Source of the DNA: Parcubacteria group bacterium Greene0714_7
Lineage (GTDB): Bacteria; Patescibacteriota; Minisyncoccia; Phycocordibacterales; Phycocordibacteraceae
Assembly: GCA_007378985.1 (NCBI GenBank)
Contig: VMHB01000002.1
Coordinates: forward strand, 27,320 to 91,319
Length of the DNA: 64,000 bases
Direction of reading: 5' to 3'
Within the stretch, counting starts at the first letter, position 1; every line of letters starts with the position of its first letter. Positions 9,166 through 60,460 of this stretch are shown piece after piece. The notes beneath the pieces are model-generated. The model saw nothing but the letters and a program-made list of their open reading frames with translations, had not been told where the DNA came from and searched no databases. Position numbers and translations under genes: made by a program.

Positions 9166-9197
9166 CTAAACCCTATCCACTAAACACTAACCCCTAA
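9166..9197 (+). repeat. CCCTAA(A)-like intergenic repeat copy (gctaaaccctatccactaaacactaacccctaa), 6 nt upstream of the rplT ATG
   Basis: Member of a recurrent motif family seen at more than 15 sites in this window. Confidence 0.7.
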
Positions 9198-9203
9198 TTT
9201 CAT

Positions 9204-9551
9204 ATGTCTAGAGTAAAAGGAGGACCAAAGGCGATGAAGCGCCGTCGCAATATATTGAAAGCCGCAAAAGGCTATCGTTTTGGACGCTCAACAAAGACAA
9301 AGCAGGCACTCGAAGCTTTGAAACACGCTGGTAAATACGCATTCCGCGATCGTAGAGCTAAGAAAAGAACTATGCGAGGACTCGCAATTGTACGTATCAA
9401 CGCAGCACTTCGCGAAAGAGGTTTCAAAAACTACAGCACCTTCATGGGCGCAGTAAAGAAAGCAAACATCGAGCTCGACCGCAAAGTACTTTCAGAAATT
9501 GCATCGGAATACCCAGAAGCATTTGATAGACTCTTGAAAATAGCTGCCTAA
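9204..9551 (+). CDS. rplT: 50S ribosomal protein L20
   Basis: MSRVKGGPKAMKRRRNILKAAKGYRFGRS...; canonical infC-rpmI-rplT order. Confidence 0.95.
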   Translation: MSRVKGGPKAMKRRRNILKAAKGYRFGRSTKTKQALEALKHAGKYAFRDRRAKKRTMRGLAIVRINAALRERGFKNYSTFMGAVKKANIELDRKVLSEIASEYPEAFDRLLKIAA

Positions 9552-9695
9552 GGAGTTGTGAATCCATCCCCGCGAGAAAAATACAAGTTAAAAATATGCG
9601 CTGGGTGTACTCGACCAATCCTTGGGTATGACAATTTAACTTGTACTGAATTACGCGACGGTCGTTTTCTTCATTCAGGTTGCAAACTATAAACT

Positions 9696-9722
9696 AATCC
9701 CGTTTTCGCGGGATTTTTTATA
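9696..9722. terminator. Bidirectional rho-independent terminator between convergent rplT and the MBL gene
   Basis: Hairpin aatcccg-ttttcg-cgggatt followed by TTTTTAT. Confidence 0.6.
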
Positions 9723-11139
9723 CAATAGGAATTTCGTATGTCTCCCCTTCTCTTGGTACATCAACGGGAATATTGAGGAACCCTGCGATGCGTTGCGCTA
9801 GAAACGTTGCTGACTCTGTTTCCCCCAATATTACAAAAACATGCTTAGGGTTAACATTTTCAGCAAAGGTCATGAGATCATCTCTGTCAGCGTGTGCAGA
9901 AAATCCGTCCGTTGATAGTATTGTCGCGCGCGCCTTAACCTCAACACCATCTATATTTACTGTTCGTGCGCCGTCTTTAAGTCTCCGACCTAAACTCCCA
10001 GGCACTTGATAGCCCACCAGGAGGAGCACCGTTGATTTCTGCGGTAGATACTTCGCTTCGTGTCTTCTAATACGCCCACCATGGCTCATACCAGCTCCTG
10101 CGATGATTATTTTAGGGCCGGGGTGCCTGTCTATCGCATCCGACTCGTCTGGGTGGACACTCACTTTTAAACTTGGGAATGAAAATGGATCGTCTCCGCC
10201 GAGAAGTCGAGTGCGTATATCAGCACGAAGAAATTCTGGATGCTTTCTGTACACATCAGTTACTTTGGCAGCAAGAGGTGAATCCATAAATACTGCTACT
10301 TCGGGAATAACACCGTTAGTAATTGCCTTATCTAAAGAAGCAAGAATTATTTGTGTGCGTTCAAGTGAAAATGCAGGTATAAGAAGCGTACCTTGGCTCC
10401 CAATAATAACTTTAACAGCCGACAAGAGCGCCTGCTCACTCTCTTCAAGTGAGCTGTGTGTTTTATTGCCGTATACACTTTCTGTTATAAGGTATTCTAC
10501 ATCGGCAGGCACTTCCCTATCGGGCACAAGAGCGGCAGGCACACGACCTAAATCTCCTGTAAACAAAATTTTCTTTCCAAAAATATCAAGGAGGATGGTG
10601 GCAGATCCTAAAATGTGTCCAGCATTGTGAAATGTTGCAGTAACTCCAGGCGCGAACTCTAATGTTTTGCCATATGTCGCCTCATCAATATATTCAACTG
10701 CCCGTATAGCATCTTCAATAGCGTACGGTGGTTCATCGTTGCATCGCTTTGCTTCGAGGGCAATTATCTTTACAGAGTCCTCAAGCATTATTGGAATAAG
10801 TGCTTTGGTGGGAGCCGTTGCAAACGCACGCCCTGTAAAACCGTTCTTTACAAGTTTAGGGAATAACCCAATGTGATCAGCGTGTGCGTGAGTAAAAAGA
10901 ACTATATCAATCGTTGCGGGATCGTATGAAAATATTTCCCTATTAGCCGATTCACAAAATCGCTCACCCTGCGCTAGTCCACAATCAATAAGTATGCGTG
11001 TAGTAACCTCTCCATTTTTTGCTTCTACAAGGAAATTTGAACCCGTAACACGTCTCGCACCTCGTGCAAACAAAATAGAAATCGATTTCATTGAATCATC
11101 ATACCTTAGACCAGAGAGCGCAACATCGGGAAAATTCAA
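9718..11139 (-). CDS. MBL-fold beta-CASP family ribonuclease (RNase J/CPSF-like)
   Basis: FTHAHADHIG metallo-beta-lactamase motif plus C-terminal beta-CASP-like region; 473 aa. Confidence 0.75.
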   Translation of the reverse strand: MNFPDVALSGLRYDDSMKSISILFARGARRVTGSNFLVEAKNGEVTTRILIDCGLAQGERFCESANREIFSYDPATIDIVLFTHAHADHIGLFPKLVKNGFTGRAFATAPTKALIPIMLEDSVKIIALEAKRCNDEPPYAIEDAIRAVEYIDEATYGKTLEFAPGVTATFHNAGHILGSATILLDIFGKKILFTGDLGRVPAALVPDREVPADVEYLITESVYGNKTHSSLEESEQALLSAVKVIIGSQGTLLIPAFSLERTQIILASLDKAITNGVIPEVAVFMDSPLAAKVTDVYRKHPEFLRADIRTRLLGGDDPFSFPSLKVSVHPDESDAIDRHPGPKIIIAGAGMSHGGRIRRHEAKYLPQKSTVLLLVGYQVPGSLGRRLKDGARTVNIDGVEVKARATILSTDGFSAHADRDDLMTFAENVNPKHVFVILGETESATFLAQRIAGFLNIPVDVPREGETYEIPIV

Positions 11140-11149
11140 AAGTAAAAAT

Positions 11150-11169
11150 TGTATGATATATCATACAGA
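11150..11169. promoter_or_regulatory. Palindromic operator-like box TGTATGATATATCATACAG
   Basis: 18-20 nt palindrome 22 nt upstream of the MBL RNase start. A near-identical copy sits at the ComEC start (47938..47957). Confidence 0.5.
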
Positions 11170-11193
11170 CATCTAAGGTAGCCATAGCGCGGA

Positions 11194-11250
11194 AGAATTA
11201 CCACACCCTCACATATACGATATATCGTATATGTGAGGGTGTGGTAATTC
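11194..11250. repeat. 57-bp perfect palindrome (GAATTACCACACCCTCACATATACGATATATCGTATATGTGAGGGTGTGGTAATTC)
   Basis: Arms of 28 bp pair without a single mismatch. The centre ACGATATATCGT shares the GATATATC core with the operator-like box. Confidence 0.9.
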
Positions 11251-11263
11251 TCTTTGTTCATAT

Positions 11264-11297
11264 AAAAATCCGCCTTTGATATATTCAAGGGCGGATT
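11264..11297 (-). terminator. Rho-independent terminator downstream of ndk (minus strand)
   Basis: Stem aatccgcc...ggcggatt followed on the minus strand by a TTTTATAT run. Confidence 0.55.
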
Positions 11298-11310
11298 TAG
11301 AAGGATCAGT

Positions 11311-11444
11311 GACGGAGTATTAACCTTAGAGCCGAAGCTCCAGGTGGGTGCTCGCAGCATCTCGCGCATCGGATTCTCCGGAGAGATTCACCAGCGCGGA
11401 GCGATATAAAGCTCCCTAAAGTTTTTCAACGAGGTTAATACTCC
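11311..11444. ncRNA. Candidate structured RNA element bounded by 15-bp inverted repeat (gacggagtattaacc / ggttaatactccgtc)
   Basis: Perfect 15-bp arms enclose about 105 nt rich in internal palindromes (ctccggag, gcgcgcatc...). No convincing ORF and no family recognised. Confidence 0.3.
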
Positions 11445-11551
11445 GTCACTAACCCCTCCCTCCATTCTAGCAGGTTAGCCACTAGTGGTTAGGGTTTAGG
11501 GGAAAACAAAAGTGCATTCTCCCTAATGGCTAAAAACTAAACCCTATTGGC

Positions 11552-12187
11552 TTATTCAAGGATTCCATCCAAATTCACATCGTAGAGAATTTGCTCCTGG
11601 ACGATACGGTATTTCAATATTTCTTCGGGCTTAAACCACACAGCAATTTCACGTGATGCTTCTTCTGGGGACTCTGAACAGTGGACGAGGTTTCTAACGG
11701 CACGACTCTGTACCGATGAATGGTCGTAAGAATCCACAGTGTAGTCACCACGAATAGTTCCAACATCTGATGTCTTTGGCTCTGTTGCACCCACAAGTTT
11801 CTTCACAACGGCTACTGATTCATTCCCTTCAACAACCATCATGAGTACAGGACCTGCAGTCATGAATTTCACTATTGAATCTATTATTTCTTTACCGTAC
11901 CCAAGCGCATCCTTCTCTATTGGCAGATTGTGCGTGGTGCGGTCATTTAATATCCGAGTTCCTTTTTCAAGAAACCACTTCTCATCTTTGTTGTAGTGAC
12001 GCACAAGTTGGTCTTCCGTGGCAAGACCAAATTTGAATGCAACAAATTTCAATCCTGTTCGCTCTATGCGCTTCATTATCTCTCCGATAAGAGAACGCTG
12101 TACTGCGTCAGGCTTCAATATAATAAGCGTACGCTCATTTTCAAATTGTGCATTGGTGTTCATTGAAGCGACTATAGCATTCTGCAA
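11552..12187 (-). CDS. ndk: Nucleoside diphosphate kinase (extended form)
   Basis: Conserved NDK core (RTLIILKPDAVQRSLIGEIMKRIERTGLKFVAFKF...) and the active-site region (NLVHCSESPEEASREIAVWF). Confidence 0.8.
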   Translation of the reverse strand: MQNAIVASMNTNAQFENERTLIILKPDAVQRSLIGEIMKRIERTGLKFVAFKFGLATEDQLVRHYNKDEKWFLEKGTRILNDRTTHNLPIEKDALGYGKEIIDSIVKFMTAGPVLMMVVEGNESVAVVKKLVGATEPKTSDVGTIRGDYTVDSYDHSSVQSRAVRNLVHCSESPEEASREIAVWFKPEEILKYRIVQEQILYDVNLDGILE

Positions 12188-12202
12188 GGCGAAACGCCAT
12201 GC

Positions 12203-12222
12203 GAAGGGGTTAGGGTTTAGAG
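12203..12222 (-). repeat. CCCTAA-like repeat copy (minus-strand ctctaaaccctaaccccttc) about 15 nt upstream of ndk start
   Basis: Same motif family as the rplT copy, oriented with the downstream gene. Confidence 0.7.
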
Positions 12223-12244
12223 AAGAACGAATTCAAAGCCCCTT

Positions 12245-12271
12245 GATCCCTGCGGATCCGATGAAGCGTCG
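12245..12271 (+). repeat. Two-hairpin UNCG element copy a (GATCC-CTGC-GGATC + CGATG-AAG-CGTCG)
   Basis: It shares structure and sequence with the copies at 54170..54196 and 43817..43843, with compensatory base changes between copies. Confidence 0.65.
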
Positions 12272-12300
12272 CCTAAACACTAAACCCTGTCCACTAACCC

Positions 12301-15186
12301 CTACTGCTTCTGGTTTTCTCGCATCTGATTATACTTTTGGTGAATATCAGCCTCCACAGCTTCGCGGGCTCGACCGTAGCGTTGATACGAAATCTGTTTC
12401 AATGCATCAATGTTCAAGAAGTCACCAGGGATAAATGGAATAGTCTCAATAGTAAAACCGGGGGTAGGTTTTCCTCCAGCAAGGAGCTTCAAATACGAGT
12501 GGAAGTTGTCAATTTTCAGGAAGTCGGAAACCTCAAAGCCTGGAAATTGTTTCGCAATATACTCAGCATCATCGGGACCTACACGAAACACTGCCATGGT
12601 ACCAACGTTACCGAATACTGAGTCTTTAATTTTTGGAAGGAGCTGAGAAACATACTGGTGTGCCATCGTCATAGAGAGGCGAAATTTGCGTGCCTCAGAG
12701 AGAATTGTGGAAATAGTATCGGTCGTAATGTTTTGGAACTCGTCAATGTAGAGATAGAAGTTCGGAGGATTCAAATGCAAATACTCCGTACGCGCAAGTG
12801 CGGTCATCATTATTTTCCCAACAATCACAAGACCAATCAAGTTTGCATTTACATCCCCTAGTCGGCCTTTGGACAAGTTCACAAGAAGAATTTTCTTGTT
12901 GTCCATAATGTCCTTGAAATTAAAGGCCGAGCGTTGCTGACCTATGATGGGGCGCATAATTTCGTTTGCGATGAAGATGTCGAACTTTGAGGTGATATAT
13001 GGAACCACGTTGCGCAAATCTCCTTCTCCGCGCACATTTTCTGCAATATCTTCCCAGAAGTGCGTTACCACAGGATTCTTACAGCGAGACAATTTCAATG
13101 CGCGGAATTCATCGTCAGCCAAAACACGGGAAATATCCATCAAGGTCGAGCCAGTATCAGGATCTTCGAGCACAAGCATTGTGGCATTACGGAAGTACTG
13201 CTCAAAGATAGGACCAAATGCTTCTGGTACATCGCCATATAATTTCTTGAAAATCTTAAACATTTCATCCACCACGAATGTTTTTTGTTCAGGGAAGCGT
13301 GGATCATACTCAAGCATATTGAGCCCCATTGGCCTTGCGGTGTATGCAGGATCAAAGTAAATGAGGTCATCGATACGATCTTTAGGAATACGGGAAAGAA
13401 TCTCCAATACATCCACGCCGTGTGGGTCAATAAAACACACCCCTTCCCCATTCTCAATGTCCTGAATAATCATGTTCTTCAGGAAGTTCGTCTTACCAGT
13501 ACCCGTTTGCCCAATGGTATACATGTGACGCAGGCGATCATCTGGAGTGAAATGAATTGGCGTTGCAATATTTGAGTAACGATTAATGCCAATGACAATG
13601 CCTTTCTCAGGAAGCCCTGGTGGCGCAGGAGCGAGCTTAGCGCTTGCAGTTTTGGCTTCACGAGATGCTGTACCTCCTGCAATAGTGAGATGAAAAATAG
13701 TTGAGAGCTCTGCCAAATTCATAGGCATGAGTGGAATCTTATGCATCAAAGGCGTTGGAGCAGCCTTGCGTGTCCATTCAAGCCACAGCTGATAGAAAAA
13801 TCCTTCGTGTGCTTGACGGTCAAACATGCGGAAGATGAACAAGCGGAGAAATTCCCGCAATTCCTTTCTACCTTTTATATGCTTAAAACGAAGGCGATTC
13901 GCTTTTGCATCTTCATACTGCCCAAAAGTATTTTCGAGTTCTGTAAGAATGGCCATTGCCCTCTCTTTGGTGCGAGCAGACGCAACAATACGTAAATTCA
14001 CTCCCACAATGACACTCTTGAGCTTTTTTGACACTGCGTCAGCCGCAAAAGAATCAATATTCTTACTATCATCCTTCTTTTTTTCTTCAGAGCTTTCCAA
14101 AAAACTAGTGAAGCCTTTGTTCAATCCCTGAAAAAATCGACGCATTGGTGAGTAATGCTCCATATACATATTTTTTCGAAATATGTCATTCGCAGAACCC
14201 TTACCTTTATTAAGTTCGTCTAAAACATAGCGAATACGCTTAGAGTGATAGTCTCCTGCTGGTGCAACGGTAATTTGAAGCGCGGCCCCCTCACCTTCTT
14301 TGGTAATTTTTGAAAGTGCTGCGAGCGTCACATTCATAGGGTCGTGACTAAACTCTTCTGATGTCTTTAAAGGAATTGGTGGCGGGCGCTGATAGTAAGC
14401 AGACGCTGCAACAGTCACACCAAATTGGTTAAAAAGATTGTAGTCATCTTTTTTTTCAACAATACGTGCACGGGGAAACATAGCAAAAATCTGCTTTTCA
14501 AACGTTTCCCGTTTTGCTCGAGGAACTGACAAATAAAAGACCGCTTCCTCTTTAGTGTGCGAGACAGCAATTTCCATTGTGAAATGCTGGAGATGAATTT
14601 TTTTGCGCTTGTGCCAATCTTTCAGGAAAATTGTATCGGGGAGAGCAACAAAAGGAATCATGCTCAAATAAAACTGCTCCATCTGCATGCAAACATCCTT
14701 AAGAGACCCCCCTGGTTTCCCTGGCGCGGCTTCAGGTACGGCTATATCCAAGAGAACAAAATCAAGAGCTACAGCGAGTGGGTCACTAGCGCTCAGCCCT
14801 GGGATTGGATGACCAGCTGTCCGGTACTGCACAAGCAGGCGATGGAAATCATCTTCAAGATGGGGATTATCAATGCGATCGAGCTCCTTCATGACAGCCT
14901 TGAATCCTTGGGTATGTAAAATACCCAACAACTCCTCCATGTCTTTGTCGTTCGAGTCAGGTGTAAGTTCAAGAATGATGCCTTGCTTCTGCTCTTGCTC
15001 TACCCCCTCTGGTGCCTCCGAAAGTGTAGGGAGAACAGATGCTTCGACAGGTAAGGCCGGATCTCCTCGATGCCCCCTTCCTCCACCACCAGAGCGCGCA
15101 GTCTCACGCAACTTCGTCAGTTGATGTTCGGGCGAGAGCTTCGCTGCTTTTGTATCAATTCCTTTGTTTGGATTAAACCCTGGCAT
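12301..15186 (-). CDS. Large P-loop ATPase of the VirD4/VirB4 (T4SS/FtsK-HerA superfamily) type with about 500-aa N-terminal extension
   Basis: Walker A GQTGTGKTNF, then FIDPHGVD (the DPKG-like motif of T4SS ATPases) and Walker B LYIDEFQN. No transmembrane segment is obvious. Confidence 0.5.
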   Translation of the reverse strand: MPGFNPNKGIDTKAAKLSPEHQLTKLRETARSGGGGRGHRGDPALPVEASVLPTLSEAPEGVEQEQKQGIILELTPDSNDKDMEELLGILHTQGFKAVMKELDRIDNPHLEDDFHRLLVQYRTAGHPIPGLSASDPLAVALDFVLLDIAVPEAAPGKPGGSLKDVCMQMEQFYLSMIPFVALPDTIFLKDWHKRKKIHLQHFTMEIAVSHTKEEAVFYLSVPRAKRETFEKQIFAMFPRARIVEKKDDYNLFNQFGVTVAASAYYQRPPPIPLKTSEEFSHDPMNVTLAALSKITKEGEGAALQITVAPAGDYHSKRIRYVLDELNKGKGSANDIFRKNMYMEHYSPMRRFFQGLNKGFTSFLESSEEKKKDDSKNIDSFAADAVSKKLKSVIVGVNLRIVASARTKERAMAILTELENTFGQYEDAKANRLRFKHIKGRKELREFLRLFIFRMFDRQAHEGFFYQLWLEWTRKAAPTPLMHKIPLMPMNLAELSTIFHLTIAGGTASREAKTASAKLAPAPPGLPEKGIVIGINRYSNIATPIHFTPDDRLRHMYTIGQTGTGKTNFLKNMIIQDIENGEGVCFIDPHGVDVLEILSRIPKDRIDDLIYFDPAYTARPMGLNMLEYDPRFPEQKTFVVDEMFKIFKKLYGDVPEAFGPIFEQYFRNATMLVLEDPDTGSTLMDISRVLADDEFRALKLSRCKNPVVTHFWEDIAENVRGEGDLRNVVPYITSKFDIFIANEIMRPIIGQQRSAFNFKDIMDNKKILLVNLSKGRLGDVNANLIGLVIVGKIMMTALARTEYLHLNPPNFYLYIDEFQNITTDTISTILSEARKFRLSMTMAHQYVSQLLPKIKDSVFGNVGTMAVFRVGPDDAEYIAKQFPGFEVSDFLKIDNFHSYLKLLAGGKPTPGFTIETIPFIPGDFLNIDALKQISYQRYGRAREAVEADIHQKYNQMRENQKQ

Positions 15187-17576: not shown

Positions 17577-18149
17577 TTAACCTGCAATAAGAGATTCTAC
17601 GACTTCTGCAAAACGTTTTTTAGCAGCATCCACTTCTCCCGAATGATTTTCAATAACAAAATCAGCCTCGGACATAAAATTCATCTCATCTTGATATCGT
17701 TCTTTTCTTTTCTCGAGTTCCGTTTCCGATATTGATGCACGAGCCCGAATCCGAGCCTCCATTTCACTCCACGAACCAGCATTCACGAAAATAACAGCTA
17801 GTTCTTCTTTAGGGATTTTCTTTTGCAATTGTCGAACTCCTTGTACTTCAAGTTCTTTTAGTGCAGTCATACCTCCGTCTAACAGTGGCATAACTTCAGA
17901 TGCAAGCGTGCCATAAAAATGCCCACCATATTCTGCCCACTCTAAAAAATCACCACTCTCGATGCGGGACTGAAACTCCTCACGAGAAAGAAAATAGTAA
18001 TGCTCGCCGTGCTTTTCGTTAGCACGCATAGAACGAGTTGTTGAAGACTTCGGGTACTGAAGCGCTGGAAACAGAGGGCGGATATGATTAATAAGTGTTC
18101 CTTTTCCAGAACCAGATGGACCAATAACGAGTATGAATTTCCCTTTCAT
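17577..18149 (-). CDS. gmk: Guanylate kinase
   Basis: GPSGSGKGTL P-loop and the STTR motif. Confidence 0.85.
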   Translation of the reverse strand: MKGKFILVIGPSGSGKGTLINHIRPLFPALQYPKSSTTRSMRANEKHGEHYYFLSREEFQSRIESGDFLEWAEYGGHFYGTLASEVMPLLDGGMTALKELEVQGVRQLQKKIPKEELAVIFVNAGSWSEMEARIRARASISETELEKRKERYQDEMNFMSEADFVIENHSGEVDAAKKRFAEVVESLIAG

Positions 18150-18199
18150 ATTTTTACTATTTAGAAGCTACACACAAACGCTAGCCACTAAATCCTATC

Positions 18200-19471: not shown

Positions 19472-19483
19472 GGTAACCAGTGT

Positions 19484-19993
19484 TTAGCTTTTAGCTTTTA
19501 GCGAAGAGACAGCTTTCTTAGAAGGCATAACCTTTCTTGAAACAGGAGCGCGGACAGCACCTCCTGCTTTCTCAATTGTAGCCCGTGCTACTTCAGAGAT
19601 GAAAACATCCTCAAAAGAGAGCTTAACGGTGAGTTCACCTCGCGCAAGAACCTTGATTGGAGGAACCTTACCGGAAATGCGTCGTACAACCCCAGCCTTT
19701 ACGAGCGCGATAGGTGTAACAACATCCCCTGCCTTAAATTGCCTTGAGAGCGTATCAAAGTTCACGGTAGCAAATCTCACGCGAGGTACTGCTGTGCGAG
19801 AACGGTTTCTGCCATATCCACGGCGTTTTGGAATCTTCTTGATGATGTCACGCCATTCTGGGCGGAACTTTGCACCAGCACGGGAATTCTGACCTTTACC
19901 ACCACGACCCGATGTCTTACCTCGTTTTCCCCCACGACCAACACGACGGGTCGCCTTATTGCTCTTTGAACGTGTAAGTGTGTGAAGTTCCAT
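19484..19993 (-). CDS. rplO: 50S ribosomal protein L15 (with C-terminal extension)
   Basis: RRVGRGGKRGKTSGRGGKGQNSRAG signature. Confidence 0.9.
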   Translation of the reverse strand: MELHTLTRSKSNKATRRVGRGGKRGKTSGRGGKGQNSRAGAKFRPEWRDIIKKIPKRRGYGRNRSRTAVPRVRFATVNFDTLSRQFKAGDVVTPIALVKAGVVRRISGKVPPIKVLARGELTVKLSFEDVFISEVARATIEKAGGAVRAPVSRKVMPSKKAVSSLKAKS

Positions 19994-26296: not shown

Positions 26297-26367
26297 GTGC
26301 GCACTAAGAAAAATGCGCCCTTACGAGCTTTGGGCATACTATCCCAATCACCCACCCACTGTCAATC

Positions 26368-27169: not shown

Positions 27170-27197
27170 ATTTTAAAAACAAAAATCCTCCTTCGGA

Positions 27198-33020: not shown

Positions 33021-33027
33021 AGAAATT

Positions 33028-42936: not shown

Positions 42937-42947
42937 ATTTAGCTAGC

Positions 42948-43010
42948 CAATAGGGTATAGGGTATAGGGTAACAGCATTAAAATCTAGTGGCTAAACCCT
43001 AGTGGCTAGT
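42948..43010. repeat. Divergent-promoter-region copies of the CCCTAA-like repeat (minus: ccaatagggtatagggtatagggtaac; plus: ctaaaccctagtggctagtggc)
   Basis: Each copy sits in sense orientation upstream of its own divergent gene. Confidence 0.7.
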
Positions 43011-43034
43011 GGCTCACGATGCTACACTCGCACT

Positions 43035-43775: not shown

Positions 43776-43816
43776 TTAAAGAGGTTAAATTTCAGATTTA
43801 AAGCTGAAAGCTGAGT

Positions 43817-43843
43817 GTTCCCTTCGGAACCGATGAGACATCG
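43817..43843 (+). repeat. Two-hairpin UNCG element copy c (GTTCC-CTTC-GGAAC + CGATG-AGA-CATCG)
   Basis: Stem base pairs co-vary relative to copies a/b (GATCC/GGATC becomes GTTCC/GGAAC). Confidence 0.65.
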
Positions 43844-43860
43844 CCTGATACCTACTTATT

Positions 43861-44577: not shown

Positions 44578-44595
44578 GTAATAGGAATCCTCCCT

Positions 44596-44630
44596 AAACC
44601 CTAGTGGCTAACAACTAAACCCTGAGCGTG
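44596..44630 (+). repeat. CCCTAA-like repeat copy (cctaaaccctagtggctaacaactaaaccctgag) upstream of rpmB
   Basis: Motif family. Confidence 0.7.
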
Positions 44631-44914: not shown

Positions 44915-44923
44915 CTACTCTTT

Positions 44924-44965
44924 AAGGTAGACGGTACGCCGTTTATCTTAGGGAGTTTTTTTATT
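44924..44965 (+). terminator. Terminator-like hairpin after rpmB (acgg-tacg-ccgt, UACG tetraloop, then T-run)
   Basis: Hairpin plus agtttttttatttt. Confidence 0.4.
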
Positions 44966-50165: not shown

Positions 50166-50256
50166 TGTTTAGGGATAAGTGTTTAGCGTTTAGGGAAATT
50201 CCGAAGCAAAATCATGAGCTGTTGCTCTATACGCTAAACCCTATACACTAAACGCT
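50166..50256. repeat. Divergent-region CCCTAA-like repeat copies (gtgtttagggataagtgtttagcgtttaggg / cgctaaaccctatacactaaacgct)
   Basis: The G-rich copy is adjacent to recJ (minus) and the C-rich copy ends at the HIT gene ATG. Confidence 0.7.
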
Positions 50257-50667
50257 ATGGAAAATTGTCTATTTTGTAAAATCGTTGCGAGAGAAATTCC
50301 TGCGGAAATTATATTTGAAAATGAGCACACGTTCGCATTTCTAGATATCCGCCCCAATAATGCAGGCCACACACTCGTGGTTCCAAAAACTCACTACAGA
50401 AACATGCTGGACATGCCGATCGGTGTTTGGCTGGAAGCAATGAAAACTGTGCACTATCTTGGACCTAAAATAAAAAACGCTGTCGGAGCGGGTGGGATTA
50501 ATCTTGGAATGAACAACGAACCCGCTGCACACCAGCTCGTCTTCCATGCACACATACACATCATTCCCCGCATTGAAGGCGACCCACACAAGCCATGGAT
50601 AGGAACTGAATACAAAGAAGGCGAAGCGGAAATTGTTGCGGAAAAAATAAGAAACTCTTTGAACTAA
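50257..50667 (+). CDS. HIT-family (histidine triad) hydrolase
   Basis: HAHIHIIPR histidine triad. Confidence 0.9.
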   Translation: MENCLFCKIVAREIPAEIIFENEHTFAFLDIRPNNAGHTLVVPKTHYRNMLDMPIGVWLEAMKTVHYLGPKIKNAVGAGGINLGMNNEPAAHQLVFHAHIHIIPRIEGDPHKPWIGTEYKEGEAEIVAEKIRNSLN

Positions 50668-52546: not shown

Positions 52547-52734
52547 ACAAAAAGTAGAGCTTCTCCCGTACATGTTCGAGCAAAGCGAGTTACATGTCCG
52601 AGGACCCCGTACACAGAGGCCACTATATATTCAATATATCGCATACCGTGTGTCGAACAAGACGGGACCTTACAAACACGACCGCCGATGACGGCGAGTG
52701 TTCTGGGGCAATTTCCAATAATGAGCTTTTTCAT

Positions 52735-52849
52735 CCCGTTAGAAATAGAATGCGAATGCCTGTGCCTCGCACCTACCTATATTAAAAATATTAAACATCG
52801 ACCTCAGCAGTCCATTTCTATCTGTTTCGCATTCGCAATTTCTAACGGG
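52735..52849. repeat. Long-range inverted repeat (cccgttagaaatagaatgcgaatgc ... gcattcgcaatttctaacggg) enclosing a 69-nt AT-rich loop
   Basis: Arms pair over 21 bp with one 4-nt bulge, within the 400-nt tpiA upstream gap. Confidence 0.6.
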
Positions 52850-52901
52850 ATTCATTGAGAAATCGTAACATGTTTGAGAAGGGTTTAGGAAAGAGCTTTG
52901 A

Positions 52902-52945
52902 ATTGGAATTTTCCCTAAACGCTAACCACTAAACCCTAACCCCCA
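52902..52945 (+). repeat. CCCTAA-like repeat copy (ccctaaacgctaaccactaaaccctaacccccactag)
   Basis: Motif family, located at the 3' end of the pilin-like gene. Confidence 0.7.
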
Positions 52946-52952
52946 CTAGTAG

Positions 52953-54134
52953 CTAGTCCTGCGTACGCCAATCAATAATACGAAATCCACTGGCTGTTGC
53001 TGGAGTGAATGGTGGTGGCAATTGTGCCAAGAGGGCATCGTGGACATCTGTCCGAGTGCTATAGCCCGAAATAAACGCGCCAGAGGATGTCCATTTTGTT
53101 TCAACGGTACCAGGCGATGAAAATGTACCGAAGGTATTTAGCGTGGAACGAAGTACATATGATTGCAGGTCGATAGGAACAGCGTGCGTACCTGAGGAAT
53201 CATAGCGATGTCGCCCAAAATGGCCAGTGCCTGCCACAAAAACACCATTCATCTGCAACACATCGGGTGATTGGAGTGAAATCAATACTGATCGCTCGGC
53301 AATTGCGGTCAACCCATCATCGTATGCATGCGCATAGGTAATATTTCCAGTAATAACAATGTCTGGCTTAATACTGGAGCTCGCCACATTTGCAGCGGCG
53401 AATGTAACCTTTCCAGATACGACCCCCTCAAGCCAAACAGAATCTTCTACAAATACAACGGGACATCCTGCAGGTATGGCGTAATTTATTGTGGCGCCAA
53501 TTGAAGCAATTATTGTGTTTTCTTCCTCCCAACCTTCATCATCTGAATATCCCATTATCTCAGTAACTGCAGTAACAGGACTTGCATCAAATGTTCCGTT
53601 CGACTTGAAAACAATTTTGTACCCATGCGCTCCACCAGATGTAGGAGCAAGATATACGCCCGATGCTTGCGCATATGTTTTTAAGTTTGTGAGGGTGGAG
53701 GTAACCACTGTGGAATCAGTCTTTGCTGGACTTGTTGATGCCGCCAACGTCTCCGTCCCATACTGAGCAATAAGTGTTTTTGTGTGTGATGCATTTTCCA
53801 GTGCCCATCCTGTTGAACGCACTGATGCGGATGTAAGTACTCCACAAGAAGTTATATCTGAAATAGCGAGAGAAAAATTCCCGACAGTATTTCCGTTTTC
53901 TGGATCCAAAACTGCATGGACATACGGCCCAGACAAACCCGTGCCATCTTGTACATCAGTAGGAAACTCTGAGAAGTGCCACCGATAGTACTCAATTCCC
54001 GCTTCAGAAATACCTAGTGCTTTGTCGGCCTCAGATCCAAAACGCTCTTTAGTACGCTCAAGTGTGAGCGCACTCATAAAGTCGGAGAGCAGGAAGAAAA
54101 AAACAGCAGAAGCGATAAGTACAAAAAGAGTCAT
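52953..54134 (-). CDS. Large pilin-like/pseudopilin-like protein with N-terminal hydrophobic segment (type IV pilus cluster)
   Basis: Start set at MTLFVLIASAVFFFLLSDF; the ORF-track N-terminal 31 aa are encoded by the intergenic two-hairpin repeat and are probably not coding. Gly/Ser/Thr-rich ectodomain. Confidence 0.5.
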   Translation of the reverse strand: MTLFVLIASAVFFFLLSDFMSALTLERTKERFGSEADKALGISEAGIEYYRWHFSEFPTDVQDGTGLSGPYVHAVLDPENGNTVGNFSLAISDITSCGVLTSASVRSTGWALENASHTKTLIAQYGTETLAASTSPAKTDSTVVTSTLTNLKTYAQASGVYLAPTSGGAHGYKIVFKSNGTFDASPVTAVTEIMGYSDDEGWEEENTIIASIGATINYAIPAGCPVVFVEDSVWLEGVVSGKVTFAAANVASSSIKPDIVITGNITYAHAYDDGLTAIAERSVLISLQSPDVLQMNGVFVAGTGHFGRHRYDSSGTHAVPIDLQSYVLRSTLNTFGTFSSPGTVETKWTSSGAFISGYSTRTDVHDALLAQLPPPFTPATASGFRIIDWRTQD

Positions 54135-54169
54135 AAACCCTCCCGCACTTCTTGCGCGTCTCCCTAAGT

Positions 54170-54196
54170 GATCCCTTCGGATCCGATGAAGCATCG
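54170..54196 (+). repeat. Two-hairpin UNCG element copy b (GATCC-CTTC-GGATC + CGATG-AAG-CATCG)
   Basis: Perfect stems with a C(UUCG)G tetraloop; followed by a CCCTAA-like motif (gacccctaaacgccataccct). Confidence 0.7.
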
Positions 54197-54226
54197 CCTG
54201 ACCCCTAAACGCCATACCCTGCTTCC

Positions 54227-54823
54227 TCATATCGCCTTAAGATTACGAAGTGTGGTGGTAGCGGTGAGTATGAACGGGGTGGTCATCCCCGGAGCAAGTA
54301 CATCAATAGAAACTAGTATGGATGCGACATCCTTCACTCGGTTCATATCAGTAACTTCAATGCCGTCCCGATCGTAATAGCGGAAAAGTGAAATGGAGTT
54401 AGCGCTGTTGTTCATGTATGTTGCCAAGGATTCACTCACTGGCGTACCACTATATGTTGGCGGAGTACCTGCGCTCACTTGGCTCCGAGAAAGTGTTGTT
54501 CCATTAATTTGATACTGAAAACGCGTCGCTCCAATGCTATTTGGAATATTACTAAAAAAAGTTAACGAGGAGGTGGACATAGAAACAATTGGATACGAGC
54601 CGTCATTGCCATATGCAACACTCCGCAAATCTGTCATTAGCGTAGTAAGAGCAGACCTAGCACTGCTGATTTGAGTTAGAGCACGAGTCCCTGTGTTATT
54701 TGTTTTGTAGAGCGCCAATACCGAATTTGACGCACTCACCACAATCAATGAAACAACCGCGAGGGTCACCAAAACCTCTATCAAACTCATTGCTCGTTTT
54801 GTGTTATTTTTATGGCGCAACAT
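54227..54823 (-). CDS. Type IV prepilin-like protein
   Basis: Leader ...KRA|MSLIEVLVTLAVVSLIV with Glu at +5 after the cleavage site. Confidence 0.65.
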   Translation of the reverse strand: MLRHKNNTKRAMSLIEVLVTLAVVSLIVVSASNSVLALYKTNNTGTRALTQISSARSALTTLMTDLRSVAYGNDGSYPIVSMSTSSLTFFSNIPNSIGATRFQYQINGTTLSRSQVSAGTPPTYSGTPVSESLATYMNNSANSISLFRYYDRDGIEVTDMNRVKDVASILVSIDVLAPGMTTPFILTATTTLRNLKAI

Positions 54824-55292
54824 AGGTAACCGCAGACATACTGTGTGAAAATCCACGTATATTCCAACTTGCCTCAACTTTTACTACCTTATAATCATTC
54901 TCGCCCACGCCATTCGCTTCATCATCCTTATATGTCACAACCGTTCGAAGTGTATACGGAATATTATTAACAAGTCGTGATTCAGTAGATACTAAAACTC
55001 CTGAAGGAGTACCGCTAACAGTCCCAACGCTCGCATACGGGAGTCCTCTCACATCCTCGATAGTGCTCGCAATAAGCGCACTCGCATTTGTGCGCGACGC
55101 AATACTTTGCACTAATGTAGCGGATGCCGCATATGCACCAAAAAACCCCAAAAAAATTATAAGCATCAAAGAGACAGCAACGACTACTTCGATAAGTGTC
55201 ATTCCCCGCAAAATGCGAGTAGGTAGAAAGTAGCTAGCAGAATGCAGACGAGCTCTTATAGATTCCTGCCTTCTGTATACTGCCTTCTGCAT
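54810..55292 (-). CDS. Type IV prepilin-like protein
   Basis: Class III signal ...ILRG|MTLIEVVVAVSLMLII. Confidence 0.7.
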   Translation of the reverse strand: MQKAVYRRQESIRARLHSASYFLPTRILRGMTLIEVVVAVSLMLIIFLGFFGAYAASATLVQSIASRTNASALIASTIEDVRGLPYASVGTVSGTPSGVLVSTESRLVNNIPYTLRTVVTYKDDEANGVGENDYKVVKVEASWNIRGFSHSMSAVTYVAP

Positions 55293-55297
55293 ACTTC

Positions 55298-58313: not shown

Positions 58314-58339
58314 TCTTTTATAAGAATAACATCGCGGAG

Positions 58340-58375
58340 CAGGGTTGAGCATTTAGTGAATAGGGTTTAGTGGAG
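58340..58375. repeat. CCCTAA-like repeat copy (G-rich orientation gcagggttgagcatttagtgaatagggtttagtgg) upstream of pilB
   Basis: Motif family. Confidence 0.6.
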
Positions 58376-58968: not shown

Positions 58969-58989
58969 AGATCTTTGGCTCTTTTACAT

Positions 58990-59017
58990 CAAAAAAGACA
59001 CTTAGGGTGTCTTTTTT
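58990..59017. terminator. Bidirectional rho-independent terminator (aaaaaagacac-ttaggg-tgtctttttt)
   Basis: Perfect 9-bp stem flanked by A/T runs. Confidence 0.7.
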
Positions 59018-59024
59018 GATGTAA

Positions 59025-59053
59025 TTGACAGCGACACCTCCCCGCGCTATACT
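59025..59053 (+). promoter_or_regulatory. Near-consensus sigma70 promoter TTGACA-17-TATACT upstream of nusA
   Basis: Consensus hexamers with ideal spacing. The predicted TSS near 59060 is followed by a short hairpin plus T-run (59077..59105), which may be a leader attenuator or a small RNA. Confidence 0.55.
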
Positions 59054-59126
59054 TTCGAAGTCAGTTTCCCTCCATGGGTCCGCGTAGCGGGCCTCTTTTT
59101 TTACCAAAATGGAGAGAAATTGAAGC

Positions 59127-59160
59127 TTTCTTATCCCTAAACGCTAGTCACTAACCCCTA
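59127..59160 (+). repeat. CCCTAA-like repeat copy (ccctaaacgctagtcactaacccctaac) 6 nt upstream of nusA ATG
   Basis: Motif family. Confidence 0.7.
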
Positions 59161-59166
59161 ACTAAT

Positions 59167-60417
59167 ATGTTTGACCTAAAAACAATAAACCTCGTCATTG
59201 AACAACTCTCCGAAGAGCGAGGTATCCCTCGTGACAAAATGATAGAAGCCATTGAAGGTGCTGTTGCAACTGCCTATAAGCGTGAGTACGGAAAGCGTGA
59301 CCAAATAGTTCGCGCACATTTTGATATTTCAACGGGTGGTGTCGATTTCTACCAAGTAAAAATGGTTGTCGCACCTGAAGAAGTTCGTATGGATGGCGAT
59401 GAGTCTCCAGTAGAAGAAGGCGACGATCGTCCTCATTATAATGAAGAGCGCTTCCTTTTCCTTGAAGATGCAAAAAGAATTAAAAGAGATGTTGCTGTAG
59501 GTGATGAACTCATATTTCCTCTAGAAAAAAAGACTGACTTCGGACGCATCGCTGCACAAACAGCAAAACAGGTCATTATGCAGAAAATTCGTGAAGCAGA
59601 ACGAGCTTCAGTTGTTGAAGAATACGGCGGAAAAGAAGGCGATATCGTTCACGGTATTGTGCAACGCATTGAGCGTGGAAACCTGTATGTCGACTTGGGT
59701 CGTGCAACGGGCATCATGCCATACCACGAGCAAATCCCCGGTGAGCGATATCGCGCTGGTGAGCGTGTTCGCGCATACCTCTTCTCAGTTGAAGAAGGGG
59801 TGCGTGGAGTATTCTTGCGTTTGTCCCGAGCACATCCAAAATTCTTGGAAAAACTTTTTGAACTTGAAGTACCTGAAATCGCAAGTGGTGCAGTTGTCAT
59901 AAAAGCAATTGCTCGTGAAGCTGGCGGTCGCTCAAAAGTTGCCGTACACGCAACTGATTCACGCATCGACCCAGTTGGCGCACTCGTCGGTCAGAGAGGT
60001 GTTCGTGTTTCAACAGTCATGAGTGAACTCGGAGGTGAACGCATCGACATCATCGAGTGGTCAGAAGAAATAAAACAATTTATTGAAGACGCACTCTCCC
60101 CTGCCCAAATTCTTTCAATTGAACTTGATGAAGAAACACACCGTGCAGTTGCTGAAGTCTCTGAGGATCAGCAATCACTTGCAATCGGTCGCGGTGGTCA
60201 AAATGTACGCCTCGCAGCTAAGCTCACTGGCTGGTCAATCGATATCCGTCCTGTTGGCGGAACAGCAGTAGAGGTGAGCGAAAATGAAGGTGGCAGAGTC
60301 GTACTATCAGCAGAAGAAGAACTCTCTTCTGCTGAAGATAAAGAGGTTGGTGAGGCAGAAGCCGAAGCAATCGAAGAAGCTCCCATTGAGCAATCAGTAG
60401 AAAAAGCTGACGCGTAA
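59167..60417 (+). CDS. nusA: Transcription termination/antitermination factor NusA
   Basis: N-terminal domain, S1, two KH domains (GRGGQNVRLAAKLTGWSIDI) and an acidic C-terminal tail. Confidence 0.9.
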   Translation: MFDLKTINLVIEQLSEERGIPRDKMIEAIEGAVATAYKREYGKRDQIVRAHFDISTGGVDFYQVKMVVAPEEVRMDGDESPVEEGDDRPHYNEERFLFLEDAKRIKRDVAVGDELIFPLEKKTDFGRIAAQTAKQVIMQKIREAERASVVEEYGGKEGDIVHGIVQRIERGNLYVDLGRATGIMPYHEQIPGERYRAGERVRAYLFSVEEGVRGVFLRLSRAHPKFLEKLFELEVPEIASGAVVIKAIAREAGGRSKVAVHATDSRIDPVGALVGQRGVRVSTVMSELGGERIDIIEWSEEIKQFIEDALSPAQILSIELDEETHRAVAEVSEDQQSLAIGRGGQNVRLAAKLTGWSIDIRPVGGTAVEVSENEGGRVVLSAEEELSSAEDKEVGEAEAEAIEEAPIEQSVEKADA

Positions 60418-60427
60418 TTCTTGATAC

Positions 60428-60460
60428 ACTAAACTCTATACCCTAATCACTAAAACCTAA
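60428..60460 (+). repeat. CCCTAA-like repeat copy (cactaaactctataccctaatcactaaaacctaa) upstream of ppa
   Basis: Motif family. Confidence 0.65.

What the first reader, a model, noticed from the sequence alone, without database searches (positions are those of the whole stretch)
9166..60460. Pervasive telomere-like CCCTAA(A)/CACTAACCCCTA repeat family in intergenic regions, frequently in sense orientation just upstream of start codons
Degenerate tandem units resembling (CCCTAA)n / (CCCTAAA)n occur at 17 or more sites. C-rich plus-strand copies lie at 9166-9197, 11447-11460, 11521-11551, 12271-12306, 42988-43010, 44596-44630, 50232-50256, 52902-52945, 54196-54218, 59127-59160 and 60428-60460. 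G-rich copies (the reverse orientation) lie at 11487-11502, 12203-12222, 42948-42976, 50166-50198, 52868-52880 and 58340-58375. In the divergent regions at 42948-43010 and 50166-50256 each gene gets its own copy in sense orientation. Several copies end 6-10 nt before an ATG (rplT, nusA, ppa, HIT), and the copy at 12203-12222 lies about 15 nt upstream of ndk. This placement suggests a lineage-specific promoter or translation-initiation signal, since no GGAGG Shine-Dalgarno is evident. Alternatively it is a REP-like element with G-quadruplex / i-motif potential (the copy at 52902-52945 has GGGG/GGG/GG/GGG tracts).
Basis: seen in the sequence. Interest (0 to 1): 0.7.

Follow-up and report, generated by a model that had tools for sequence, protein, structure and literature searches.

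The report
Seven-base repeats before SD-less gene starts
The "telomere-like" motif is a family of short, degenerate seven-base tandem repeats filling the spaces between genes of an uncultured Patescibacteria (Paceibacterota) bacterium, usually with the G-poor strand running into a start codon. It is a new example of a kind of bacterial simple-sequence repeat already described in other phyla, not a new expression signal.

Summary
CTAAACCCTA (up to 1 mismatch) occurs 29 times against 2.7 expected. The real unit is 7 nt (C-N-C-T-A-A-M), with CTA kept in a 7-nt phase. About 16 robust arrays of 3-5 units exist, and all are intergenic.

The host is a CPR/Paceibacterota MAG that uses no Shine-Dalgarno: 0 of 47 genes have one, and G is 10% at -20..-1.

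Arrays lie G-poor-strand-sense 0-12 nt before the ATG of rplT, nusA, ppa, HIT, recJ, M50 and secY. They lie G-rich-in-mRNA right after stop codons, often as inverted pairs.

They are not the general start signal:
- about four fifths of genes lack them;
- the nusA array sits in a 5' UTR downstream of a near-consensus sigma70-like site;
- the recJ|HIT arrays are missing in a relative about 94% identical in the flanking genes;
- the nusA leader has about 3, 4 or 5 units in three relatives.

Period-7 arrays with other units (CTGTAAA, GCTATAC, GACTTTC) recur across Paceibacteria with the same orientation bias (29 vs 8). No array has a canonical G4 motif.

Best reading: slippage-generated heptanucleotide repeats, kept only where they give a G-poor, unstructured leader. 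This is the same kind as the Beggiatoaceae TAACTGA and the Xanthomonas/Nostoc GGGNATC repeats. A translational role is inferred, not shown.

The parts
9164..9198 (+). Array of 5 units (AGCTAAA CCCTATC CACTAAA CACTAAC CCCTAAT). It fills the rpmI-rplT spacer and ends 5 nt before the rplT ATG at 9204. Orientation is sense.
   Evidence: rpmI and rplT identified. Predicted unstructured (MFE -1.8 kcal/mol).
11476..11502 (-). Array that is C-rich on the minus strand (CCCCTAAACCCTAACCACTAGTGGCTA). It is the middle arm of a C-G-C arrangement downstream of ndk.
11521..11551 (+). Array abutting the ndk stop codon (11552-11554). It reads G-rich in the ndk mRNA.
12203..12222 (-). Two to three sense units (CTCTAAA CCCTAAC CCC) upstream of ndk.
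   Evidence: It can pair with 12271-12306 in the fold.
12271..12306 (+). Array of 5 units. Its last CTA (12301-12303) is the TAG stop codon of the TrwB-like gene on the minus strand. It reads G-rich in the mRNA.
12244..12273 (+). 'D7' double hairpin (GATCC-CTGC-GGATC, then CGATG-AAG-CGTCG) joined to the array. Other copies are at 43816-43845 and 54169-54198.
   Evidence: (family D7). Base changes that keep the pairs are seen among the three window copies and in L003 5458-5487.
18168..18199 (+). Array abutting the secY stop codon, about 20 nt upstream of the guanylate kinase (gmk) start at 18149. It reads G-rich in the mRNA.
   Evidence: (D1)
19483..19503 (-). GCTAAAA x3 (perfect copies). It spans the L15 stop codon and ends 11 nt before the secY ATG. 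Orientation is sense.
42944..42976 (-). CCCTATA x3 array, sense, ending about 7-12 nt before the ATG of the M50 peptidase gene. It is the left half of a divergent pair.
42985..43014 (+). Array with mixed orientation (CTAGTGG / CTAAACC) upstream of the SpoU methylase gene. It is the right half of the divergent pair.
44594..44626 (+). Array between the methyltransferase stop codon (17 nt upstream of it) and the rpmB (L28) ATG (45 nt downstream). Orientation is sense.
50166..50198 (-). Sense array ending 9 nt before the recJ ATG. It is absent from L002 and replaced by a CTG-type array in L004.
50225..50257 (+). Sense array of 5 units that overlaps the ATG of the HIT-family gene (CTATG). It is absent from L002 and replaced by a CTG-type array in L004.
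52879..52889 (-). Short copy (CCTAAACCCTT) that pairs with the next array.
52909..52956 (+). Array with a TTTTCC head and 4-6 units. It runs into the TAG stop codon (52953-52955) of the gene 52953-54230 on the minus strand. It is conserved in L002.
54196..54218 (+). Weak array of 2-3 units that forms the tail of the D7 copy at 54169-54198, next to the stop codon of the gene 54227-54877. It is absent from L002.
58340..58375 (-). Sense array upstream of pilB (a T2SSE-family ATPase). It is conserved in L002 and L003.
59127..59162 (+). Sense array at the 3' end of the nusA 5' UTR, ending 4 nt before the ATG. It has about 3, 4 and 5 units in L002, the window and L004 respectively.
60427..60461 (+). 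Sense array of 5 units that fills the 46-nt nusA-ppa spacer and ends 2 nt before the ATG. L003, L004 and L006 have period-7 arrays with other units at the same junction.

Best explanation
These are heptanucleotide simple-sequence repeats (long SSRs of the STRR type).

Proposed mechanism:
1. Arrays arise and change length by replication slippage in the intergenic DNA of a Paceibacterota bacterium.
2. The organism starts translation without a Shine-Dalgarno sequence, from A/T-rich, G-depleted leaders. An array can therefore grow right up to a start codon, provided its G-poor strand is the mRNA strand. It then serves as an unstructured leader or intercistronic spacer.
3. The opposite orientation survives only away from starts. 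There its TAG-every-7-nt pattern closes all three reading frames, so ORFs end at its edge.
4. Where both orientations sit in one spacer they can pair into a hairpin.

Shown here: the repeats, their 7-nt phase, their position and orientation rules, the lack of SD, the predicted lack of structure, and fast turnover between relatives.

Inferred: slippage as the source, selection on G content as the filter, and any positive effect on translation.
For: - Period-7 CTA phasing and enrichment. All strong arrays are intergenic.
- No SD and G at 10% in -20..-1 for 47 genes. The arrays are 9% G on their C-rich strand.
- Lone sense arrays fold no better than shuffles: MFE -0.2 and -1.8 kcal/mol, z +0.9 and +1.3.
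- Orientation across the Paceibacteria loci plus the window: the G-poor strand is followed by an ATG-ORF within 60 nt in 29 of 64 arrays, the G-rich strand in 8. Without the window the counts are 23 vs 7.
- Period 7 stands out across the clade: 67 arrays against 6-14 for periods 4, 5, 8, 10 and 11. Lag-7 autocorrelation peaks in 692 upstream 35-mers (0.305 against 0.287-0.288 at lags 6 and 8).
- SSR-like dynamics: the nusA leader has about 3, 4 or 5 units in L002, the window and L004. The recJ|HIT pair is present in the window, has CTG-type units in L004 and is absent in L002. The nusA-ppa spacer has four different heptamers in four lineages.
- Stop codons in all three frames: 9 of 17 arrays on the C-rich strand, 13 of 17 on the G-rich strand.
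- The same positional rule is published for other heptamer repeats (PMC4692102, PMC4679880). Those papers also relay the proposal that 7 nt is the slippage-prone unit in bacteria.
Against: - No transcript or expression data, so a role in translation is untested.
- Neutral slippage plus a G filter does not obviously explain why the core CTA/CTG recurs at period 7 in 9 other genomes (21 quadruples, 0.05 expected). It also does not explain why many arrays share a TTTYCC head.
- All stop-proximal G-rich-in-mRNA arrays are on minus-strand genes. Their orientation could instead follow the strand compositional skew.
- Gene starts came from a crude ORF caller. Only some were checked against Pfam N-termini.
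- Only 64 kb of this genome was available.
Confidence: 0.55

Rival explanations
1. The arrays are periodic binding sites on the mRNA for a single-strand nucleic-acid-binding protein, such as ribosomal protein S1 or a cold-shock-domain protein, each domain covering about 7 nt. The protein recruits ribosomes or tunes initiation. The arrays would then be a real SD substitute or regulon tag.
For: - Strict 7-nt phase of a conserved triplet, with free positions in between.
- The CTA/CTG core recurs at period 7 in 9 other Paceibacteria genomes whose units otherwise differ.
- Placement 0-12 nt before ATGs, including ribosomal-protein and nusA genes.
- MacGregor made the same proposal for the TAACTGA repeats (PMC4679880).
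Against: - No candidate protein was identified here.
- Arrays are dispensable between close relatives and sporadic at any given gene across the clade.
- Other unit families lack CTR (GACTTTC, TTCTACC).
- Reverse-oriented copies sit after stop codons.
Confidence: 0.17
2. The arrays are a small mobile or recombining palindromic element (REP/BIME-like or MITE-like): two inverted heptamer arms around a core, sometimes with the D7 double hairpin. It inserts between genes and acts, if at all, as an mRNA hairpin for stability, processing or translational coupling.
For: - Five junctions carry G-arm ... C-arm pairs.
- The recJ|HIT insert of about 75 nt or more is present or absent as a block, and it folds with z -3.5/-4.4.
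- The arrays share a TTTYCC head and are linked to D7.
Against: - Half of the arrays are single and unpaired (rplT, nusA, ppa, L28, pilB, secY).
- Paired spacers fold only marginally better than shuffles (z -0.5 to -1.7).
- No terminal inverted repeats, target duplications or transposase were seen.
- Unit-by-unit length changes fit slippage better than transposition.
Confidence: 0.12
3. The arrays are lineage-specific promoters, or -10-like elements driving leaderless mRNAs.
For: - They lie upstream of starts and occupy nearly all of two divergent intergenic regions.
- The HIT upstream region can be read as TTGCTC-N16-TACACT-N7-ATG (read from the sequence).
Against: - The nusA array is downstream of a near-consensus TTGACA-N17-TATACT site and a terminator-like hairpin.
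- The rplT, ppa and secY arrays fill short spacers between same-strand genes.
- The distance to the ATG varies from -1 to 45 nt.
- recJ and HIT do without arrays in L002.
- Promoter-like matches are not enriched (26 against 32 expected).
Confidence: 0.06
4. The arrays form G-quadruplex or i-motif structures that modulate expression, as proposed for the GGGNATC repeats.
For: - The units resemble the plant telomere repeat GGGTTTA.
- One array (52909-52956) has GGGGG/GGG/GG/GGG tracts.
- The positional rule matches Rehm et al. (PMC4692102).
Against: - No array meets the G3+N1-7 x4 rule, and only 1 of 21 runs meets a G2 rule.
- Most units are GTG/GCG/GAG-interrupted.
- There is no preference for four units.
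- Related arrays in relatives (CTGTAAA, GCTATAC, GACTTTC) have no G tracts.
Confidence: 0.03

Closest known systems
TAACTGA heptamer direct repeats of marine Beggiatoaceae, some Cyanobacteria and Bacteroidetes (MacGregor 2015, PMC4679880)
   Same: - 7-nt tandem units, 2-6 copies per set.
[quoted passage not shown]
- Canonical SD is rare in those spacers.
- Ribosomal-protein genes are among the targets.
- Only a minority of genes carry them.
- Function unproven; a translational role has been proposed.
   Different: - The unit sequence differs (C-N-C-T-A-A-M against TAACTGA).
- The units here are degenerate rather than near-perfect.
- Inverted pairs are common here, against one reported there.
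- The host is a CPR bacterium with no SD use at all.
- Relatives carry different units at the same junctions.
GGGAATC / GGGGA(C/T)T heptamer repeats of Xanthomonas and Nostoc (Rehm et al. 2015, PMC4692102)
   Same: - 7-nt units with a bias to noncoding DNA.
- The G-rich strand lies on the non-coding strand within 50 bp upstream of ORFs, or on the coding strand within 50 bp after the stop codon. This is exactly the geometry seen here.
- Length and sequence vary between close relatives.
- No link to gene function.
   Different: - Those repeats form G4 in vitro and prefer four units. These lack the G tracts.
- Those are under-represented between divergent ORFs. Here two divergent regions are filled by them.
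Long simple-sequence repeats of prokaryotes (Mrazek et al. 2007, as summarised in PMC4679880 and PMC4692102), and, from memory, the cyanobacterial STRR heptamers
   Same: - Heptanucleotide units are the commonest long SSR class in many bacteria.
- They are intergenic.
- They are thought to arise by polymerase slippage.
   Different: I found no report of them for Patescibacteria/CPR in the searched literature. The arrays here are short (3-5 units) and degenerate.
REP/BIME elements and Correia-type MITEs (from memory)
   Same: - Intergenic.
- Inverted copies can form mRNA hairpins.
- Present or absent between strains.
   Different: - There is no conserved palindromic unit.
- The building block is a tandem heptamer.
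- Single, unpaired arrays are frequent.
- No terminal repeats or target duplications were seen.
Plant-type telomere repeat (CCCTAAA)n
   Same: The consensus of the commonest unit is identical.
   Different: - The arrays are internal, 20-45 nt long, degenerate and gene-proximal, in a bacterial contig.
- The metagenome scan shows that CACTAAC, CTCTAAA and CGCTAAA arrays are widespread in non-telomeric contexts.
- The resemblance is coincidental.

Membership tests
Heptanucleotide simple-sequence repeats (LSSR / STRR-like) | Head-to-tail tandem copies of a 7-nt unit, more than chance would give | tested here: met
   CTA at period 7: 20 triples against 0.04 expected. Runs: 21 against 1.7. TRF reports period 7 or 14 at 9166, 19483, 42950, 50227 and 52915.
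Heptanucleotide simple-sequence repeats (LSSR / STRR-like) | Bias to noncoding DNA | tested here: met
   All 16 strong arrays lie in gaps between ORFs.
Heptanucleotide simple-sequence repeats (LSSR / STRR-like) | Unit-number or sequence polymorphism between close relatives | tested here: met
   The nusA leader has about 3, 4 or 5 units in L002, the window and L004. The recJ|HIT arrays are present, replaced or absent.
TAACTGA repeat family (Beggiatoaceae) | The unit is TAACTGA | tested here: not met
   The units are C-N-C-T-A-A-M. No TAACTGA arrays appear among the period-7 arrays listed.
TAACTGA repeat family (Beggiatoaceae) | Forward orientation within a few nucleotides upstream of start codons, in spacers lacking SD | tested here: met
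G-quadruplex-forming heptamer repeats (GGGNATC type) | Four consecutive G tracts able to form a G4, and a preference for four units | tested here: not met
   No canonical G4 motif in any array, and one weak G2 motif.
G-quadruplex-forming heptamer repeats (GGGNATC type) | G-rich strand antisense within 50 bp upstream of ORFs, or sense within 50 bp after stop codons | tested here: met
Sigma70-type promoter | -35 and -10 hexamers at a fixed distance from the transcription start | tested here: not met
   No consensus-like match falls on the arrays. The best site (59025-59053) lies upstream of the nusA array. Transcription starts themselves cannot be tested with these tools.
Shine-Dalgarno-type ribosome-binding site | Complementarity to the 3' tail of 16S rRNA (CCUCC) | tested here: inconclusive
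   No 16S gene is in the window or in seven related loci. The sense arrays are 9% G, so they cannot pair with the canonical CCUCC tail. That tail is established knowledge and was not read from this genome.
REP / MITE-like palindromic elements | Conserved imperfect palindrome or terminal inverted repeats, with defined ends or target duplications | tested here: inconclusive
   Inverted arms occur at 5 junctions, but half of the arrays are single. Defined ends and target duplications were not looked for systematically, and none was noticed. Folding z is only -0.5 to -1.7, except for recJ|HIT.
Telomere repeats | Long terminal arrays at the ends of a linear replicon | tested here: not met
   The arrays are internal, 20-48 nt long, and lie next to genes across 51 kb.

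The most novel reading that the evidence does not exclude
In Paceibacteria, which lack Shine-Dalgarno initiation, a 7-nt-phased C-U-R code in mRNA leaders is read by a conserved ribosome-associated single-strand-binding protein (S1-like or Csp-like). It would act as a tunable, slippage-adjustable initiation enhancer. The reverse-oriented copies after stop codons would sequester it in hairpins until the upstream ORF is translated, giving translational coupling. The evidence does not exclude this. The CTA/CTG core recurs at period 7 in at least 9 other genomes whose units otherwise differ, and the recJ|HIT junction keeps the same two-array architecture with different units in L004.
Probability: 0.12. 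Interest if true: 0.65.

Novelty: new member of a known kind. Interest (0 to 1): 0.38.

Why it matters
- It adds the candidate phyla radiation to the scattered lineages in which heptanucleotide repeats pile up just before start codons (Beggiatoaceae, Cyanobacteria, Xanthomonas, some Bacteroidetes).
- It does so in a genome that uses no Shine-Dalgarno at all. That makes it a clean natural system for asking whether such repeats help SD-independent initiation or are merely tolerated there.
- Practically, the arrays carry stop codons in all frames and sit against gene ends. They will therefore mislead ORF-based start calling in CPR genomes.
- Their unit-number variation could serve as a strain marker.
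- For the scan, the telomere resemblance and the G4 idea are red herrings.

Tried and rejected
- A strict lag-7 identity detector found only one array, because the units are degenerate. I replaced it with phased-trinucleotide scans.
- A first loose unit score gave as many hits in shuffles as in the window (37 against 31) and was dropped.
- Rfam found nothing in the window and only tRNAs in seven related loci. The arrays therefore overlap no known RNA family, and no 16S gene was available for an anti-SD check.
- A metagenome scan for more alleles of the nusA leader found nothing.
- A second scan with the generic unit pattern returned at least 120 mostly unrelated contigs (GC 0.30-0.67). It shows that the unit type is widespread, but it adds only a weak orientation signal (30 vs 17).
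- The promoter reading was rejected and so was the G4 reading.
- A terminator role was rejected. The genome has canonical hairpin-plus-T-run terminators elsewhere (60997-61038, 44917-44956), and the arrays lack T-runs.
- The stop-codon 'insulator' idea holds for CTAA-type and TAG-type units but not for other unit families in relatives, so it is not general.
- The resemblance of the G-rich strand (UAG N4)n to the HutP site is from memory only and was not pursued.
- The look-up of encoding contigs showed only an identical 6.9-kb Logan contig.

Full report
**1. What is there**

The cited sites contain the motif.
- CTAAACCCTA with up to one mismatch occurs 29 times in 64 kb, against 2.7 +/- 1.7 in dinucleotide shuffles.
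- Two phased units, CNCTAAMCNCTAAM, occur 19 times against 0.8.
- I scanned every trinucleotide at every spacing from 4 to 12. CTA at a spacing of exactly 7 is the outlier: 20 triples on the + strand (0.04 expected), 11 quadruples (0.0004 expected), and its complement TAG 6 triples.

The unit is therefore a heptamer, C-N-C-T-A-A-M, with CTA held in phase and the other positions loose. It is not a hexamer telomere unit.

Runs of at least three phased units number 21, against 1.7 (maximum 6) in Markov-2 simulations. The 16 strong runs all lie between ORFs.
- 52868-52880 is off by about ten bases.
- 11447-11460 and 54196-54218 are weak.
- Arrays at 18168-18199 and 19483-19503 were missed.

On their C-rich strand the arrays are 35% C, 33% A, 23% T and 9% G.

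**2. The organism and its translation starts**

NusA from the window is 99% identical to that of a Candidatus Paceibacterota MAG (JAGOSG010000003.1). Further relatives are Patescibacteria/Parcubacteria MAGs. An identical 6.9-kb Logan contig also exists.

Pfam identifies the genes flanking the arrays:
- infC, rpmI, rplT
- a beta-CASP RNase, ndk, a TrwB-like ATPase
- secY, rplO (ribosomal protein L15), gmk (guanylate kinase)
- an M50 peptidase, a SpoU methylase, a methyltransferase, rpmB (ribosomal protein L28)
- recJ, a HIT-family gene, tpiA
- pilin-like genes, pilC, pilB
- nusA, ppa

None of 47 ATG-start genes has GGAG, GAGG or AGGA at -20..-4, against 11% of random windows. G falls to 10% at -20..-1, against 21% genome-wide. 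T occupies position -1 in 77% of genes (the upstream sequences are). This bacterium therefore initiates without a Shine-Dalgarno sequence, from A/T-rich, G-poor leaders. However, that general leader, not the repeat, is the common feature of gene starts. Only about 12 of about 60 genes carry an array.

**3. Position and orientation rules**

Every array within about 15 nt of a start codon has its G-poor strand as the sense strand. These are the arrays before:
- rplT (5 nt before the ATG)
- nusA (4 nt)
- ppa (2 nt)
- the HIT-family gene (overlaps the ATG)
- recJ (9 nt)
- the M50 peptidase gene (about 7-12 nt)
- secY (11 nt)
- pilB
- the SpoU methylase gene

Five or six arrays have the opposite sense. 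Each of these abuts the stop codon of a minus-strand gene: ndk, the TrwB-like gene, secY, and the genes 52953-54230 and 54227-54877. In two cases the array's own CTA is the gene's TAG stop codon (12301-12303 and 52953-52955). That follows from the sequence: TAG every 7 nt closes all three reading frames. Accordingly, 13 of 17 arrays close all frames on the G-rich strand and 9 of 17 on the C-rich strand.

In longer spacers a G-rich-in-mRNA array after the stop codon is often followed by a C-rich one before the next start (12203-12306, 11476-11551, 52879-52956). These pairs can form a hairpin, but it is only marginally better than in shuffles (z -0.5 to -1.7). Lone sense arrays are predicted to be unstructured (MFE -0.2 and -1.8 kcal/mol, z positive).

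**4. Not a promoter, not a terminator, not a G4**

- The best sigma70-like match in the 20 kb scanned is TTGACA-N17-TATACT at 59025-59053. It is followed by a terminator-like hairpin plus T-run at 59076-59094, then by the array, then by the nusA ATG. This array is therefore in a 5' UTR.
- The rplT, ppa and secY arrays fill spacers of 46-48 nt or less between same-strand genes.
- Canonical terminators exist elsewhere, and the arrays have no T-runs.
- No array satisfies G3+N1-7 x4, and only one passes a G2 rule.

**5. Turnover between relatives**

L002 is 91-97% identical to the window in DNA.
- It keeps the arrays before pilB, in the spacer after the gene 52953-54230 (between that gene and tpiA), and between nusA and ppa.
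- Its nusA leader is about one unit shorter. L004 has one unit more.
- Its recJ and HIT start codons are only about 25 nt apart, with no array. The window has 100 nt at that junction, made of two arrays.
- L004 has two arrays at that junction in the same each-gene-gets-a-sense-copy layout, but built from CTG-type units.

The nusA-ppa spacer carries a different heptamer in each of four lineages:
- CTAAAC-type units in the window and L002
- CTGTAAA/CTGTTAG in L003
- CTGAAAC/CTATAAC in L004
- GCTATAC in L006

Across 67 nusA and 52 ppa upstream regions, arrays are the exception. This is the behaviour of unstable simple-sequence repeats, not of a conserved regulatory site.

**6. A clade-wide phenomenon**

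The comparison set is about 1.2 Mb: the window plus the loci from other Paceibacteria (about 1.16 Mb).
- Arrays of at least four phased trinucleotides number 67 at period 7, against 6-14 at periods 4, 5, 8, 10 and 11.
- The units differ by lineage: CTGAAAG, TTCTACC/TTCCACT, GACTTTC, AACTTAC, CTAGAAC.
- The G-poor strand is followed by an ATG opening an ORF of at least 90 codons within 60 nt in 29 of 64 arrays, mostly within 15 nt. The G-rich strand is followed by one in 8.
- Upstream 35-mers show a lag-7 autocorrelation peak.
- CTA/TAG is also the commonest phased triplet outside the window's species: 21 quadruples in 9 genomes, 0.05 expected. ACT, GCT and CTG follow.
- A metagenome scan shows CACTAAC, CTCTAAA and CGCTAAA arrays in more than 120 unrelated contigs of GC 0.30-0.67. 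Several run straight into an ATG.

**7. Comparison with what is known**

The literature tool returned three direct parallels.
- MacGregor (PMC4679880) described TAACTGA heptamer repeats, 2-6 copies, mostly in forward orientation within a few nucleotides of start codons in marine Beggiatoaceae. The spacers lack canonical RBSs. She proposed S1, Csp or CsrA-like binding.
- Rehm et al. (PMC4692102) described GGGNATC heptamers in Xanthomonas and Nostoc. The G-rich strand is antisense within 50 bp upstream of ORFs or sense within 50 bp after stop codons, and length varies extensively between close relatives. The geometry is the same as here, but their repeats form G4s.
- A Nostoc preprint (10.1101/2022.06.06.494920) reports that deleting heptamer repeats changes reporter output.

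Both papers relay Mrazek's finding that heptamers are the commonest long SSR in bacteria, and his proposal that 7 nt matches the DNA segment held by the polymerase. Searches for CPR/Patescibacteria plus SD, RBS or repeats found nothing relevant.

**8. Verdict**

The finding is real. It is best filed as a new member, in a new phylum, of the known class of heptanucleotide simple-sequence repeats that accumulate next to gene boundaries.

The most likely account (0.55) is generation by slippage plus a selective filter. In an SD-less genome an array may abut a start codon only if its G-poor strand is sense, where it provides an unstructured leader. Elsewhere either orientation is tolerated, and the reverse one truncates ORFs at its edge.

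What this account does not explain is the recurrence of the CTR core at a strict 7-nt phase across lineages, and the shared TTTYCC head. That keeps open a protein-binding reading (0.17) and a small palindromic-element reading (0.12). The promoter reading (0.06) and the G4 reading (0.03) are unlikely.

Limits of this analysis:
- Gene calls were crude and ORF-based.
- Only 64 kb of this genome was available.
- There are no transcript data and no 16S gene.

Noticed in passing
window 52721-52860 (and L003 451-590): A noncoding element of about 140 nt forms a long hairpin (z -4.6/-6.0). It is 96-98% identical between the window and L003, although the flanking genes are only 70-77% identical. It is absent from the closer relative L002. 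In the window, a duplicated tpiA 5' fragment (starting at about 52737, minus strand) lies next to it. It may be a mobile element or a strongly constrained RNA. Rfam has no match.
   Followed up: partly
window 12244-12273, 43816-43845, 54169-54198; L003 5458-5487: The 'D7' repeat consists of two adjacent small hairpins (GATCC-CTKC-GGATC, then CGAYG-NNN-CRTCG) with pair-preserving base changes between copies. Each copy is followed by CCT and a heptamer array. The array is CTAAAC-type in the window and CTGAAAG x4 in L003. The orientation relative to the flanking genes is not constant.
   Followed up: partly
window 59025-59094: A near-consensus sigma70-like site (TTGACA-N17-TATACT) is followed by a GC-rich hairpin plus T-run in the nusA leader. 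The hairpin is conserved in L002, L004, L005 and L010. It may be a transcription attenuator of nusA.
   Followed up: partly
window 11140-11551: A 412-nt stretch between the beta-CASP RNase gene and ndk has no convincing gene. It contains a perfect 58-nt palindrome (11194-11251) and a 27-nt long-range inverted repeat (11300-11326 / 11432-11458). Rfam has no match.
   Followed up: no
window 26364-26396 and 27140-27172: The same GC-rich hairpin (TGTGCAACCTCCGGAGGTTGCACA) occurs on both sides of the gene 26426-27121.
   Followed up: no
window 27198-30212 and 30255-33080: Two adjacent genes of about 1000 codons are paralogous and internally repetitive (repeat families D2-D6 and D10). They are not rpoB/rpoC, despite their position near the ribosomal-protein operons.
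   Followed up: no
window, all gene starts: T is strongly preferred at position -1 (77% of 47 genes) and A is enriched from about -15 to -2, with SD-like 4-mers avoided (0 of 47). This is a Kozak-like start context in a CPR bacterium.
   Followed up: partly
window 55266-55295; 43800-43814: There are other period-7 or period-14 repeat families: CTGCCTTCTGCATA x2.1 directly after the pilC stop codon, and AAAGCTG x2.1 upstream of the D7 copy. L003 has CTGAAAG x4.
   Followed up: no
L082-L201 (metagenome contigs): CACTAAC, CTCTAAA and CGCTAAA heptamer arrays, up to 24 units in L124, occur in many unrelated contigs of GC 0.30-0.67. Several end a few nucleotides before an ATG (for example L095, L110, L182, L192, L197).
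   Followed up: partly
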